A DNA stretch of 64,000 nucleotides, taken from NCBI RefSeq assembly GCF_009914755.1, contig NC_060938.1, one strand, 5' to 3'. The notes under the pieces are model-generated. The model searched no databases. It was not told the DNA's origin and saw only the letters and a program-made list of their open reading frames with translations. Made by a program: the position numbers and the translations under genes. Shown here one piece after another: positions 13,443 through 54,889 of this stretch. The DNA is from the human T2T-CHM13v2.0 reference genome, Homo sapiens. How positions within the stretch are numbered: position 1 is the first letter of the stretch; each line of letters starts with the position of its first letter.

Positions 13443-14270
<828 letters not shown>

Positions 14271-39351: not shown

Positions 39352-40110
39352 TGTAGTCTGTTCTCACATTGCCATAAAGAACTGCCTGAGACTGGGTAAT
39401 TTATAAAGAGGCTTAATCGGCTCACGTTCCCACAGGCTGTCCAGGAAGCACGGCTGGCTAGGCCTCGGGAGACCTTCCATCATGGTGGAAGGTGAAGGGG
39501 AAGCCGGCACATCCTTTGAGGCTGGAGCGGGAGGAAGAGGGTGAAGGGGGAGGTGCCACACACTTTTAAACAACCAGATCTTGTGAGAACTCAGTCACTA
39601 TCACGAGAACAGCAAGGGGGAAATCCGCCCCCTTGATCCAATCACCTCTGTCCAGACCCCTCCTACAATTTAACATGAGATGTGGCTGGGGACACAAATC
39701 CAAACCATTCCATTCTGCCCCAGCCCCTCCCAAATCTCATATCCTTCTCACACTGCAAAATACAATCATCCCTTCTCAACAGTCCCTCACGTCTTAACTC
39801 ATTTCGGCATTAACTCAAAAGTCCACAGTCCAAAGTCTCATCTGAGACAAGGCCAGTCCCTTCCACCTATGAGCCTGTAAAATCAAAAACAAATTAGTTA
39901 CTTCCAAGATACAATGGGGGTACAAACATTGACTAAATACTACCAATCCAAAAAGGCAAACTGGCCAAAACAAAGGGGCTACAGGCCCCATGCAAGTTTG
40001 AAACCCAGCAGGGCAGTCATTAAATCTTAAAGCTCCAAAATAATCTCCTTCAACCCTGTGTCTCGTATCCAGGCCACATTGGCTCAAGGGGTGGGCTCTG
40101 CCCTGTGGCT
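39352..40110 (-). mobile_element. MaLR MST-type LTR (~39352-39712) plus internal fragment
   Basis: gcctgagactgggtaatttataaag...ggggacacaaatccaaacca, followed by cccctcccaaatctcat..ccaaagtctcatctgagacaagg. Confidence 0.85.
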
Positions 40111-44542: not shown

Positions 44543-44846
44543 GTATAAGGGTCACATCATACACAAAAGAGAACACCCATCTCTACAGGAGTGCCGGCTC
44601 CAGAGTCTTCGGGGTCTCAGAGAAGACCCAGAAACAAGGTCTCCACGAATTAAAGCACCATCAGGAGAGAAAGACCATCCGGATATAGTCAATCAGTGCG
44701 AGGCAGCCACATACACAAGTAACCCTTGTTTAAGCGTCAGTGTACGCATTTTCGGTTACATCTTATACGGCACTATGTACGTGAGTAACGCTTAGCTTCA
44801 GTTTAAAAAATACAAGGACGGACACTGATTAAGAAAAGCAATTTTT

Positions 44847-46720
<1,874 letters not shown>

Positions 46721-47149: not shown

Positions 47150-49450
<2,301 letters not shown>

Positions 49451-49480
49451 GTTTTCAAATAATTTGTGCTTTATTTTATT

Positions 49481-49512
<32 letters not shown>

Positions 49513-49933
49513 TTTTTCTTGCTAGAGACAGGGTCTTGCTCCATTGCCCAGGCTGGAGTGCAGTATCAGAATCTCAGCTCAGTGCAGCTTTGACATCCTG
49601 GGCTCAAGAAATCCTCCCACCCCAGCCTCCAGAGTAGCTGGGACTGGGACTACAAATGCATACCACCTTGTCCAGCTAATTGTTATTTACTTTCTTCTAC
49701 TTTATTTGGAATTAATTTACTGGATATTTTTCTTCCTTTTTTTTTTTTTTTTTTTTTTTCGAGACAGCCTAGGCTGTCGTCTAGGCTGCTGGAGTACAGT
49801 GGCACAATGACAGCTCACTGCTGACTTGACCTCCCTGGGCTCAGGTGATCCTCCCACCTCAGCCTCCTGAGTAGCTAGGACCACAGGCATGCACCACCAT
49901 GCCCAACTAATTTTGTATTTTTTGTAGAGATGG

Positions 49934-50309
49934 TGGTGTGGTTTGGCCGTGTCCCCACCCAAATCTCATCTTGAATTGTAGTTCCCATGATCCCTGTGTG
50001 TCATGGGAGGGACCCAGTGGGAGGTAATTGAATCATGGGGGCGGTTACCTCCATGCTGCTGTTCTCAGGATAGTCAATGAGTTCTCACAAGAGCTGATGC
50101 TTTTATAAGGGGTTTCCCCCCCTTTTGCTCAGCACTTCTTCCTGCCCCCATGTGAAGAAGGACTTGTTTGCTTCTCCTTCCACCATGATCGTAAGTTTCC
50201 TGAGGCCTGCCCAGCCCTGCGGAACTGTGAGTCAGTTAAACCTTTTTCCTTTATAAATTACGCAGTCTCGGGTATTTCTTCATAGTAGCGTGAGAACAGA
50301 CTAACATAG
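49934..50309 (+). mobile_element. THE1 MaLR LTR inserted in an AluJ (49735-50423)
   Basis: tggtttggccgtgtccccacccaaatctcatcttgaattgtag...gagaacagactaa; the Alu resumes on both sides. Confidence 0.88.
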
Positions 50310-50532
50310 ACGTGGTCTCACTATGTTGCCAGGGCTGGTCTCGAACTCCCTGGGCTCAAACGATCTACCCACTTCAGCCTCCCCAAGTGTTGGGATTACA
50401 GGTGTGAGCCATCTCACCCTGCCTCCTTTCGACTTCTCGAGATGAATATTTATCTCACTGATTTTTTTGGCTCCTCTTCTTTTCCATTATAAAAAATGTG
50501 AAACTGAAATTTGCCCCTAAAAATGGCTTTAG

Positions 50533-50876
<344 letters not shown>

Positions 50877-50919
50877 AACTTGTTTTTCTTTCTCACTGGA
50901 GCTGGTTCCAGATTAGATC

Positions 50920-51990
50920 TGGTCGGACCCGGCAGGCACCTGGCGGGCACTGTGCGGGCAGGGAACCAGGGAGAGCAGGAGGGCGCGGGTCCGGGCCAAG
51001 GCTGGCGGGGGTCGCCGCGGCGCGACCGCCTCCTCCGCCCCGGCTCCGTGGGATGCGCGTCCGCCCTCCCAGGCCCCTTCCTCCCGCCCTCCCCCCGCCC
51101 CCCGTTTTCCTCCCCTCCCCTCCCGACCCGCCCCAGGCCAGACCCCCGCGCGGGTCCTCGCCCTCCCAGGACCCTTCCTCCCTCCCCTCCCCTCCCCGCC
51201 GCGTCCCGGACCCTGCGGGCTGGTCCCGCGCCCCGCCAGGGCTGCCGGGGTGTGCTGCTGGGGAGCGTGGAGTGGGCAGGACCACGCTGGACACGCAGTT
51301 CGCGTGCGGCCGCTCCCCGAGCAGTGCGCGGCGTGGGCGGAGGAGCGGCTCCGCGAGGAGATCGAGGCGAACGCGGCGCCCGCGTTGCTGGAGGTCGTGG
51401 ACGCGGCGGGCGCCGAGCACCTGGTCACGCTCCAGGACCTGGACATCCGCCACGGCGACGGCTCCGCGGTGCTCCCGGGCGTGTGCAGCGAGGCCTCGTT
51501 CCGGGCCGTGAGGCCGCCGAGCAAGCGCCTGCGCCGGCCGTGGGAACCCGGGGCCGTCCCGCGGGTGCTGGTGGGCACCCAGGCCGACCCGGACGACGGG
51601 CGCCAGGTGCTGACGGCGCGGGGCCGCGAGGGGCGCTCCCCGTTCCCGGAGGTCATGGCCAAGAACCAGCGGATGGTGGACCGGGTGTTCATGCAGGCGG
51701 TGCGCGAGACGGAGGCCTTGGTCCCGCCCGAGGAGGAGGTGGAGTGTTGGGAAGTTTTCTGTTGTCCCCTGGACTCCATCCAGAAAAAGATGGCCCTGGT
51801 GGCAGCCTCGAAGCGCGGGGAGGGAGGCTAGGACTGGGGCCGCGTCGGGAACTGAGCCTGCCGGGACGCTTCTAACCCGCGCGCGGCCTCGAGTCCCTCC
51901 GGTGCCCAGGCCTTGTTCCCCAAGACCCACGGGTGCAGAGCAGAAGCGCGGCCCCAGCGCCCGAGGCCTGAAAGCTGTTCTTTACCTTCG
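50920..51990. promoter_or_regulatory. CpG island covering the Rap-like pseudogene and its upstream GC-box/C-rich tract
   Basis: Dense CpG; ccgccc and cctcccc runs at 51060-51235. Confidence 0.85.
51237..51831 (+). pseudogene. RAP2CP1: Disabled intronless Rap2-like small GTPase gene
   Basis: Reconstruction across two -1 frameshifts (~51270, ~51316): GVLLGSV/GVGRTTLDTQFACGRS/PEQC..EEIEANAAPALLEVVDAAGAEH..LQDLDIRHGDG..VPRVLVGTQAD..RQV..PFPEVMAKNQRMVDRVF, colinear with RAP2; no ATG, no CAAX; symbol is recalled from locus context, not verified. Confidence 0.85.
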
Positions 51991-52118
51991 CAGCTTTCCA
52001 AGTTACTATAATAGGTAAAAGGCAAGGGCTAACGTCTTAAGTATTTAATCGATTTCCTTATGCAGATTCTGCACTCGTAATTACTAAACGTGAGAGCCCA
52101 GGATGAACTATTCGGTGC

Positions 52119-54889
<2,771 letters not shown>

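What the first reader, a model, noticed from the sequence alone, without database searches (positions are those of the whole stretch)
51237..51831. Rap2-like sequence looks like a lost (unitary) atypical small-GTPase gene, not a simple RAP2 retrocopy
Seen: a complete G-domain can be rebuilt over two single-base deletions (~51270, ~51316) and a missing ATG (gcc-ag-ggc). After the second lesion the frame stays open for about 170 codons. The sequence sits in an intact CpG island with nearly all third positions G/C, and has no poly(A) tail or TSD. It is far more diverged from RAP2A/B/C than the neighbouring RPL21 and RPL17 retrocopies are from their parents. Motifs are atypical: G1 GSVxVGRT, no effector Thr, G3 DAAGAEH, G4 TQAD, G5 MAK, no CAAX. 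Knowledge: dead retrocopies normally become methylated and lose CpG. From memory, mouse has an uncharacterised intronless Rap-like gene (Gm266) between Tnfaip2 and Eif5. Inference: this is the disabled primate orthologue of a distinct, little-studied mammalian Rap subfamily.
Basis: partly seen in the sequence, partly recalled or inferred. Interest (0 to 1): 0.8.

Follow-up and report, generated by a model that had tools for sequence, protein, structure and literature searches.

The report
Dead relic of lost Rap2-like GTPase
This stretch is one of two broken human remnants of a small signalling-protein gene that bats, whales, carnivores, rodents and elephants still keep intact, so it records a gene lost on the human lineage, not an ordinary dead copy of RAP2C.

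Summary
The sequence is real and mostly as described. Window 51217-51741 is a colinear, intronless Ras-family G domain. It is broken by three (not two) one-base deletions and a 12-base deletion, has no start codon, and its nucleotide-binding motifs have decayed. It is only about 33% identical to RAP2A/B/C but 59-67% identical to a tightly conserved 200-residue "Rap-2a/2c-like" protein. That protein was found intact in Laurasiatheria, Glires and Afrotheria, and no intact primate protein was found.

Three corrections. First, the human genome holds a second copy 71.8 kb upstream that is absent from the supplied gene table. It shares all these lesions and alone keeps the ancestral C-terminus and stop codon. 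RAP2CP1 lacks the last ~17 codons and shares no 3' flank with it, so RAP2CP1 is probably a partial duplicate of the true relic. Second, the "missing ATG" spot is the third deletion, inside a lysine codon. Third, the open frame and CpG island do not argue for function. All six frames are open there, and the lineage's substitutions are strongly AT-to-GC biased.

Synteny with mouse, and the link to the name Gm266, could not be tested.

The parts
50541..52060 (.). CpG island that holds RAP2CP1
   Evidence: this merged stretch of 200-base windows with GC at least 0.55 and CpG o/e at least 0.65 has GC 0.68 and CpG o/e 0.89. The core 50900-51950 has GC 0.746 and o/e 0.87, against 0.33 for the whole window.
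51172..51733 (+). Block shared with the second human copy. That copy (copy A) lies outside the window at chr14:97443334-97443895, window coordinates -20666..-20105. Its full relic runs to the stop at chr14:97443949 (window -20051; locus L002 1498-2071).
   Evidence: 93.4% identity over 562 bases without a gap; 4 of the 37 differences lie in 51172-51368 and 33 in 51369-51733 (p 0.0015); copy A aligns to residues 2-200 of 200 of P0007 and P0005, ending ...SERFIG plus TAA. It has the same three one-base deletions and the 12-base deletion, plus a 6-base and a 5-base loss near the end. It is absent from the supplied gene table.
51212..51214 (+). Likely place of the lost start codon (CCT here, ACT in copy A). 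This would imply a fourth one-base loss in the G run at 51217-51219.
   Evidence: My own reading of the sequence against the orthologues' MAGLV...; no tool scored it. No ATG lies in the main frame before 51652.
51217..51237 (+). N-terminal extension GLVPRPA, in the same frame as the main ORF
   Evidence: tblastn and frameshift-aware alignment to P0007, P0010, P0011 and P0020.
51238..51239 (+).
   Evidence: three of four orthologue alignments place it at 51238 and one at 51244. It is shared with copy A.
51240..51269 (+). GCRGVLLGSV: beta-1 strand and the start of the P-loop, in the second frame
51270..51271 (+). Broken codon inside the P-loop: second one-base deletion
   Evidence: four of four alignments. 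Shared with copy A.
51272..51313 (+). VGRTTLDTQFACGR: rest of the P-loop (GKT has become GRT) and helix 1, in the third frame
51314..51315 (+). Broken Phe codon: third one-base deletion
   Evidence: placed at 51311-51315 in four of four alignments. Shared with copy A.
51316..51741 (+). Main part of the G domain (switch I to PPEEEV), open, with 141 of 142 third positions G/C
   Evidence: Pfam Ras 47.2 bits. RAP2A 69.2 bits. 56% identity to P0006 by tblastn. GC3.
51627..51628 (+). Junction of a 12-base (four-codon, ALAR) deletion
   Evidence: four of four alignments. The same gap is in copy A.
51539..51546 (+). CGTGGGAA, an RBPJ-like site inside the old coding sequence (TGTGGGAA at the same place in copy A)
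   Evidence: Its function was not tested, and one such site in about 1 kb is close to chance.
51742..51831 (+). Tail unrelated to the family's C-terminus, ending in TAG
   Evidence: No similarity to copy A beyond the block (local score 14 against a shuffle mean of 14.4). Three of four orthologue alignments end at 51738; the fourth (P0020) runs on to 51787 only by adding a further frameshift. The 3' flank 51742-52125 is unique in the genome.

Best explanation
RAP2CP1 is a dead, 3'-truncated copy of a placental-mammal gene for an atypical Rap2-derived small GTPase.

The family probably began as an intronless RAP2C-derived retrogene in an early placental. It changed fast (a very long stem branch) and was then held nearly constant.

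On the lineage to humans the gene lost its start codon. It also acquired three one-base deletions within the first 36 codons, which destroy the P-loop, a four-codon deletion, and replacements of key nucleotide-binding residues.

Two relics remain, 71.8 kb apart, between TNFAIP2 and EIF5. The upstream, unlisted copy still runs to the ancestral C-terminus and stop codon, so it is the better candidate for the original locus. RAP2CP1 shares only about 560-700 bases with it and ends before the last ~17 codons. It is therefore most likely a partial DNA duplicate, or the product of a conversion, of a gene that was already broken.

The CpG island and the all-G/C third positions are inherited from a very GC3-rich gene and were reinforced by strongly AT-to-GC-biased substitution. 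This is the pattern of GC-biased gene conversion, possibly including exchange between the two copies. RAP2CP1 makes no GTPase.

Shown: family membership, the lesions, the second copy, the truncation and the substitution bias. Inferred: the retrogene origin, the direction of duplication, and the biased-conversion mechanism.
For: - Family. There are intact ~200-residue proteins in 10 named species, and further full or partial models in 9 more, from Laurasiatheria, Glires, Scandentia and Afrotheria. They are 73-100% identical to the bat query.
- An exhaustive search shows a gap from family representatives (80% identity or more) down to 48% or less for everything else.
- The careful tree gives the family 100/100 with a stem of 1.51. 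The two human copies are sisters inside it at 100/100, and the family joins a RAP2C representative at 97/88.
- The human relic is colinear with the protein without interruption. RAP2A and RAP2C match in two separated genomic pieces and RAP2B in one.
- Lesions.
- There is no other family copy and no intact one in the genome.
- Copy A covers residues 2-200 of 200, while RAP2CP1 stops at about 181-183.
- The flanks are unrelated downstream. There is no colinear duplication in the 90 kb upstream: 23 low-copy HSPs with scattered offsets.
- Bias. In 109 codons that are identical in both copies and have an agreed ancestral residue, 27 changed: 20 W>S against 3.5 S>W, at 91.5 W and 126.5 S sites (p 4e-5).
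- Divergence between the copies is uneven, 4 of 197 bases against 33 of 365 (p 0.0015), as a later conversion tract over the 5' part would give.
Against: - Synteny of either copy with the gene of other mammals was not testable here.
- The direction (A original, RAP2CP1 derived) rests only on the truncated tail and unrelated 3' flank.
- RAP2CP1 keeps PPEEEV where copy A has lost two codons, and it sits in the larger island. It is also the only copy listed in the supplied annotation.
- Attachment to RAP2C involves a very long branch and poorly resolved RAP2 paralogues, and the bootstrap had not fully settled.
- After the copies split, the W>S bias is weak: RAP2CP1 6 W>S against 4 S>W, copy A 2 against 4.
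- Differences between the copies avoid old third codon positions (2 of 33, against 10.4 expected from context; P 1.4e-4). Neutral decay does not explain this.
- No primate outgroup DNA was available, so the age of the loss is unknown.
Confidence: 0.72

Rival explanations
1. RAP2CP1 is the original orthologous locus (a true unitary pseudogene). Its C-terminal end was later replaced by a local rearrangement, and the upstream copy A is the duplicate, made before that event.
For: RAP2CP1 lies in the larger CpG island and keeps PPEEEV, which copy A has shortened. An unnamed ORF, P0014, is 75.5% identical to the translation of RAP2CP1's own tail and 3' flank, so that tail is not recent. The supplied annotation lists only this copy.
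Against: Copy A alone carries the ancestral ...ANAQ..SERFIG-stop tail. RAP2CP1's tail shows no similarity to it. This reading needs an extra rearrangement.
Confidence: 0.2
2. It is an ordinary processed pseudogene of human RAP2C, dead on arrival and simply very old, as its name suggests.
For: RAP2 is the nearest known family. The family joins a RAP2C representative in the tree. The sequence is intronless.
Against: It is 32-34% identical to RAP2A/B/C but 59-67% identical to the intact family, with which it shares an N-terminal extension and many derived residues. Intact family members are conserved across placental orders, so the copy was a working gene for a long time. There is no poly(A) tract.
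Confidence: 0.02
3. The locus is not inert. The hypomethylated-looking CpG island persists because it still works as a promoter or Notch-responsive element, or because a product read in another frame is under selection.
For: CpG o/e is 0.96 over the old ORF, against 0.26-0.37 in neighbouring retrocopies. RAP2CP1 appears among 34 genes of an expression-based risk model in head-and-neck tumours (passages of PMC9563607). Mouse Gm266 is a Notch target with a dynamic RBPJ site (passages of PMC4889922, PMC11109962 and PMC7144913). RBPJ-like motifs number 20 in the window against 8.6 expected, and none of 100 shuffles reached 20. Differences between the two copies give pN/pS 0.34 in the +2 frame (p 0.0016) and spare old third positions.
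Against: The +2 frame (50808-51875) contains no Met and is Gly/Arg/Pro/Ala-rich, as any out-of-frame reading of GC-rich DNA would be. The frame test was post hoc on 33 differences. No methylation, transcription-start or binding data were available. GC-biased fixation can also keep CpG content high. This reading can coexist with the best explanation.
Confidence: 0.06

Closest known systems
Predicted 'ras-related protein Rap-2a-like / Rap-2c-like' proteins of non-primate placentals (P0005-P0012, P0020-P0025). From memory, mouse Gm266 is one of them.
   Same: 59-67% identity to the read-through translation. Shared features include the N-terminal extension ..GLVPRPAKGY and the stretches FACG.FPE.C, NAAPALLE.VD and CSEASF.AVRP. 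Both also have T instead of N in G4 and no CAAX box.
   Different: The human copies have no ATG, three one-base deletions and a 12-base deletion. GKT has become GRT, DTVG has become DAAG or DAAD, and TKAD has become TQAD. RAP2CP1 lacks the C-terminal ~17 residues. That Gm266 is a member, and that it lies between Tnfaip2 and Eif5, is recalled; no call showed it.
RAP2A, RAP2B, RAP2C
   Same: They are the nearest characterised GTPases (RAP2A 69.2 bits). The family nests within the RAP2 group, and the G-domain architecture is the same.
   Different: Identity is only 40-45% for the intact family and 32-34% for the human relics. The family has V/A and A at Ras positions 12 and 13, Ser for Thr35, Ala at position 61, TKAD for NKVD, and no CAAX cysteines.
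Constitutively GTP-bound atypical GTPases regulated by expression (Rnd1-3, RhoH)
   Same: This is a 'works like' comparison for the intact family only, and it is an inference from general knowledge. The family has non-glycine residues at position 12, has lost the catalytic position-61 residue, and (for Gm266) is controlled transcriptionally by Notch.
   Different: Those proteins belong to a different branch (Rho) and keep lipid-modification motifs. No biochemistry exists for this family, and none was tested here.
Unitary pseudogenes of primates (for example GULOP) and duplicated-pseudogene pairs with interlocus conversion
   Same: The gene is intact in other mammals and disabled in humans with no functional paralogue. 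The two neighbouring copies diverge unevenly.
   Different: Two relics exist instead of one, and synteny has not been shown. The comparison with GULOP is recalled, not tested.

Membership tests
Ras-superfamily small GTPase (as a working gene) | Significant match to the Ras family profile | tested here: met
   PF00071 47.2 bits against a cut-off of 21.6.
Ras-superfamily small GTPase (as a working gene) | Intact P-loop GxxxxGK[ST] | tested here: not met
   A one-base deletion lies inside the loop (51270-51271) and Lys has become Arg (GRT). The intact orthologues have GS(V/A)AVGKT.
Ras-superfamily small GTPase (as a working gene) | G4 [NT]KxD | tested here: not met
   TQAD in both human copies; TKAD in the orthologues.
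Ras-superfamily small GTPase (as a working gene) | Uninterrupted ORF with a start codon | tested here: not met
   Three frame changes and no ATG in the main frame before 51652.
RAP2 subfamily (RAP2A/B/C) | High identity to RAP2 paralogues and the effector region YDPTIEDFY | tested here: not met
   32-34% identity. The effector region reads CAAWAEERL in human and CEPSVEELF in the family.
RAP2 subfamily (RAP2A/B/C) | C-terminal CAAX box | tested here: not met
   The family ends ...WPSERFIG and copy A ends ...SERFIG-stop. The RAP2CP1 tail is unrelated.
Placental 'Rap-2c-like' family | Groups with the family to the exclusion of RAP2 and RAP1 | tested here: met
   100/100 for the 15-row family clade including both human copies.
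Placental 'Rap-2c-like' family | Full-length colinearity including the C-terminal ERFIG | tested here: not met
   RAP2CP1 aligns to about residue 181-183. Copy A aligns to residue 200.
Processed pseudogene of RAP2C (dead on arrival) | Poly(A) tract at the 3' end | tested here: not met
   No A-run of 6 or more and no AATAAA/ATTAAA in 51700-52400.
Processed pseudogene of RAP2C (dead on arrival) | Target-site duplications | tested here: inconclusive
   The ends of the inserted unit are not defined. The upstream flank is low-complexity C/T-rich.
Processed pseudogene of RAP2C (dead on arrival) | Closest relative is the parent gene of the same genome | tested here: not met
   Closest are copy A (93.4% at DNA level) and the intact family of other mammals.
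Unitary pseudogene | Intact orthologues in other species and no functional copy in this genome | tested here: met
   (intact proteins elsewhere). (only two disabled copies in the human genome).
Unitary pseudogene | Same chromosomal neighbourhood as the functional orthologue | not testable with these tools
The human position between TNFAIP2 and EIF5 comes from the supplied annotation.
Unitary pseudogene | Single relic, not a duplicate of another relic | tested here: not met
   A second copy lies 71.8 kb upstream, and RAP2CP1 is the truncated one.

The most novel reading that the evidence does not exclude
A placental-specific Rap2-derived GTPase that is switched on by Notch in mouse was destroyed on the primate lineage by a burst of GC-biased substitution and interlocus conversion. 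In this reading the repair bias itself drove damaging AT-to-GC changes into the P-loop and the G3 and G4 motifs. The two relics are also not fully neutral: their differences avoid the old third codon positions, which would fit a product read in an overlapping frame, or some other three-base-periodic constraint, still under selection.
Probability: 0.07. Interest if true: 0.75.

Novelty: new member of a known kind. Interest (0 to 1): 0.45.

Why it matters
The locus is named and listed as a RAP2C pseudogene, which hides three points.

- Most placental orders keep a distinct, highly conserved, uncharacterised atypical GTPase.
- The human genome has only two broken copies of it, one of them absent from the supplied gene table.
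- If the recalled identity with Gm266 holds, a gene routinely used as a read-out of Notch activity in mouse pre-T cells has no working human counterpart. That matters when mouse Notch target lists are carried over to human T-cell leukaemia.

The pair of relics is also a compact example of GC-biased evolution keeping a dead gene looking like a live CpG-island gene. This is a caution against reading CpG retention or long open frames as signs of function.

No paper describing the family or this loss was found. The searches were 'RAP2CP1' (2 papers, both tumour expression lists), 'Gm266' (16 papers), 'Rap-2c-like' and variants (2 papers, neither about the family by title and abstract), 'unitary pseudogene' with 'Rap2c' (0 papers), and 'Gm266' with 'Rap2' (2 large gene-table papers). 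Genome-browser orthology tables were not available to me and may already record the link.

Tried and rejected
- I first read P0004 (243 aa, 80% identical) as another primate's orthologue sharing the lesions. One search showed it is the translation of the second human copy (97.6% identity to L002), so it gives no cross-species dating. I withdrew that inference.
- The first tree contained a mis-framed 13-residue piece of the human row and used P0004 as a separate taxon. I rebuilt it with corrected rows (quick, careful). The placement did not change.
- Large segmental duplication carrying both RPL21P12/13 and the two Rap2-like copies: rejected. Blast of the 90 kb upstream against the window gave 23 low-copy HSPs with scattered offsets. 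The RPL21 copies share only the RPL21 part, at 91-94%.
- Residual homology of RAP2CP1's tail to the ancestral tail, which I thought I saw by eye: not supported (local score 14 against a shuffle mean of 14.4).
- Using the long N-terminal extensions of some orthologue models to decide which human copy keeps the ancestral upstream region gave only low-complexity Gly/Pro/Arg matches on both copies. Searches printed nothing because of script slips.
- Synteny from the literature failed. No passage places Gm266 (the Gm266 term was not found in the held 300,000 characters of PMC9542162).
- Earlier scan notes were not open.
- Rfam found no family at gathering score in the window. Tandem repeats near the locus were unremarkable.
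- Explanations tried for the codon-position skew between the copies: trinucleotide context (still P 1.4e-4); concentration of A/T sites at positions 1 and 2 (explains the W/S differences only if all are W>S, whereas polarisation gives 8 W>S to 8 S>W); antisense ORFs (the fitting antisense frame has stops at about 51425 and 51653). None is satisfactory.
Full report
**What is at the coordinates**

The window is human chr14 (T2T-CHM13), as the hub states. The finding lies in a 1.5 kb CpG island.

Three forward frames each carry a piece of a Ras-like G domain. The 171-residue translation of 51316-51828 matches Pfam Ras PF00071 at 47.2 bits against a cut-off of 21.6. Among solved structures it is closest to RAP2A at 69.2 bits. 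RAP1B scores 49.2, and Ras, KRAS and RalA chains score 43 or less.

**The decisive result: an intact family elsewhere**

A search of the 5.8-billion-protein collection with the human translation returned 12 hits. Two are human-like ORFs (P0003 and P0004), and one is a short ORF over the tail (P0014). Nine are ~194-209-residue proteins that are 58-64% identical.

Searching again with the bat protein P0006 gave 29 hits at E <= 1e-30, all of this family:
- 19 carry species names. They include bats (Hipposideros, Rousettus, Phyllostomus), whales (Mesoplodon, Physeter) and carnivores (Phoca, Canis, Crocuta).
- The others are Sus, Sorex, the rodents Jaculus, Perognathus, Dipodomys, Lemmus and Spermophilus, Tupaia, and the afrotherians Loxodonta, Echinops and Elephantulus.
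- 8 are unnamed, and 2 are the human-like broken ORFs.
- Ten named species have models of 199-205 residues. The rest are longer, partial or flagged low quality.
- No primate, marsupial, monotreme or non-mammal name appears. The search is limited by word-sharing and by 90% clustering, so this is not proof of absence.

An exhaustive phmmer over 1.84 billion representatives shows family representatives at 80-99% identity to the query. After that nothing exceeds 48%.

Identities among intact members are 78-88% between orders and 96-97% among bat, whale and seal. That level of conservation across placental orders implies purifying selection. This is an inference, because no orthologue DNA was available for dN/dS.

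**Where the family comes from**

In a careful ML tree of 33 rows, with RAP1-like outgroups and named RAP2A/B/C representatives, the results are:
- The 13 intact members plus both human copies form a 100/100 clade on a stem of 1.51 changes per site.
- That clade joins a RAP2C representative at 97/88.
- The RAP2 paralogues themselves are poorly resolved, the branch is long and the bootstrap had not quite settled. I therefore treat 'RAP2C-derived' as likely, not shown.

The human relic is colinear with the protein without interruption. In the same genome RAP2A and RAP2C match in two separated pieces and RAP2B in one. An intronless derivative of an intron-containing RAP2C points to a retrogene that became a real gene in an early placental. 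The name 'RAP2C pseudogene' is thus right about deep ancestry and wrong about history.

**Lesions**

I aligned four orthologues to the DNA with a frameshift-aware routine. All four give:
- one-base deletions at 51238-51245, 51270-51271 and 51311-51315;
- a 12-base deletion at about 51628.

It is the Lys codon of ...RPAKGY..., not a start codon.

The orthologues carry an N-terminal extension (MAGLxxRPAKGY). Its remnant GLVPRPA (51217-51237) sits in the same frame as the main ORF, because the three deletions sum to three bases. That frame has no ATG before 51652.

By eye, the two residues before GLV read Ala-Gly only in another frame. That would put the lost start codon at 51212-51214 (CCT) and add a fourth one-base loss in the G run. 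No tool scored this.

Motif decay on top of family traits is listed:

| Motif | RAP2 | Family | Human |
|---|---|---|---|
| G1 (P-loop) | GSGGVGKS | GS(V/A)AVGKT | GSV-break-VGRT |
| Switch I | DPTIED | EPSVEE | AAWAEE |
| G3 | DTAGTEQ | DTVGAEH | DAAGAEH |
| G4 | NKVD | TKAD | TQAD |
| G5 | SAK | TAK | MAK |
| C-terminus | CAAX box | ...WPSERFIG | unrelated tail in RAP2CP1 |

From general knowledge of Ras, non-glycine residues at positions 12 and 13 and Ala at position 61 predict a GTP-locked, GAP-insensitive protein. Such proteins are regulated by expression, as Rnd and RhoH are. This is an untested inference about the intact family.

**A second human copy changes the reading**

The human genome is held as G000. 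Searching it with P0006 found two family loci on chr14 and otherwise only RAP2B, RAP2A, RAP2C and more distant GTPases.

The second locus, copy A, is chr14:97443334-97443949, at window coordinates about -20666 to -20051. It lies 71.8 kb upstream of RAP2CP1 and is absent from the supplied gene table.
- The two copies are 93.4% identical over 562 bases without a gap (window 51172-51733). Copy A therefore has the same three one-base deletions and the same 12-base deletion.
- P0004, which I had first taken for another primate, is the translation of copy A (97.6% identity).
- Copy A aligns to residues 2-200 of 200 of the seal and whale proteins, through ...ANAQHTRLSERFIG to a TAA at the orthologous stop. 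It has extra losses of 6 and 5 bases near the end.
- RAP2CP1 aligns only to residue ~181-183. What follows shows no similarity to copy A (score 14 against a shuffle mean of 14.4) and is unique in the genome.
- Upstream there is only weak similarity in C/T-rich sequence.
- The 90 kb upstream show no colinear duplication with the window. The two RPL21 pseudogenes share only their RPL21 parts.

The simplest reading is that copy A is the relic of the original gene, and that RAP2CP1 is a partial DNA-level duplicate or conversion product of an already broken gene. The reverse direction is possible but needs an extra rearrangement.

P0014 is an unnamed ORF 75.5% identical to the translation of RAP2CP1's own tail and flank. 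It suggests that RAP2CP1 with its present tail also exists in a moderately diverged genome, so the duplicate is not recent. I did not pursue its source.

**Why it still looks like a live CpG-island gene**

- CpG o/e is 0.96 over the old ORF. It is 0.98 in RAP2CP1 and 0.96 in copy A over the shared block.
- GC3 is 141 of 142.

Stop-free stretches of 200-362 codons occur in all six frames, so the open frame carries no weight.

I polarised changes with the residue agreed by at least 11 of 13 intact orthologues and the nearest codon:
- RAP2CP1 differs at 42 of 137 such columns, with 29.8 W>S against 8.8 S>W changes.
- Restricted to 109 codons identical in both copies (the shared lineage), 27 changed: 20 W>S, 3.5 S>W, 2 S>S and 1.5 W>W, at 91.5 W and 126.5 S sites (p 4e-5).

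Ordinary human mutation favours S>W (general knowledge), so this is a strong fixation bias of the kind ascribed to GC-biased gene conversion.

Divergence between the copies is uneven: 4 of 197 bases in the 5' part, which holds all three frameshifts, against 33 of 365 in the rest (p 0.0015). This fits later exchange between the copies. It also means the shared frameshifts might have been spread by conversion instead of inherited.

Whether the bias caused the loss or merely acted on a dead sequence cannot be told from these data.

**An unexplained pattern**

Of the 33 differences between the copies that fall in old codons, 9 are at first positions, 22 at second and 2 at third.
- Context-matched expectation is 11.7, 10.9 and 10.4. 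Monte Carlo P for 2 or fewer at third positions is 1.4e-4.
- pN/pS is 2.69 in the old frame (p 0.044) and 0.34 in the +2 frame (p 0.0016).
- All seven C<->G differences avoid third positions.

The +2 frame has no Met and looks like out-of-frame GC-rich sequence. The test was post hoc on few sites. I record it as unexplained and as the basis of the low-probability novel reading.

**Literature**

- 'RAP2CP1' occurs in two papers, both head-and-neck tumour expression lists (passages of PMC9563607 read).
- 'Gm266' occurs in 16 papers. Passages of three Nucleic Acids Research papers show it is used as a standard Notch target in mouse pre-T cells. Those papers report a dynamic RBPJ site and a Notch-dependent enhancer (PMC4889922, PMC11109962, PMC7144913).
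- None of the passages describes the protein or its location.
No call shows it.
- Searches for the family's database names, and for unitary-pseudogene reports mentioning Rap2c, found nothing relevant.

**Verdict**

It misses that RAP2CP1 is the truncated one of two relics, and it over-reads the CpG island.

This is a new, apparently unreported member of a known kind (lineage-specific gene loss leaving duplicated pseudogenes). Interest is moderate. It rises if the Gm266 link and a primate-wide loss are confirmed.

Noticed in passing
outside the window: chr14:97443334-97443949 (window -20666..-20051), locus L002 1456-2071: A second, fuller relic of the same gene lies in its own ~1 kb CpG island (L002 1100-2099: GC 0.65-0.77, CpG o/e 0.69-1.15). 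It is not in the supplied RefSeq gene table. An unnamed database ORF (P0004) is its translation running on into an Alu.
   Followed up: yes
window 51369-51733 against L002 1653-2017: Differences between the two copies avoid old third codon positions (2 of 33; P 1.4e-4 after matching for trinucleotide context) and give pN/pS 0.34 in the +2 frame. No explanation tried was satisfactory.
   Followed up: partly
window, whole; clusters at 39361-39752 and 48888-51546: RBPJ-like YGTGRGAA motifs number 20 in 64 kb against 8.6 expected, and none of 100 shuffles reached 20. Four lie within 392 bases at 39361-39752 and six within 2.7 kb around RAP2CP1. I did not check whether they lie in repeats, nor whether they function.
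   Followed up: partly
window 44831-46670: A second unannotated CpG-rich stretch of 1.8 kb (GC 0.68, CpG o/e 0.77) lies beside an Alu, 5 kb upstream of RAP2CP1. I saw nothing recognisable on reading the translations of its 12 stop-free frames of 90 residues or more; no family search was run on them.
   Followed up: partly
window 13444-14003 and upstream -79523..-78635: RPL21P13 and RPL21P12 match each other only over the RPL21 part (91-94% identity) and not in their flanks. They are therefore independent retrocopies, not part of a shared duplication.
   Followed up: yes
locus L004 (chr5:76655158-76655670, minus strand): An uninterrupted 188-codon open frame is 41% identical to the bat family protein (E 2.4e-39). 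It is presumably an intronless RAP-like copy elsewhere in the genome. I did not identify it.
   Followed up: no
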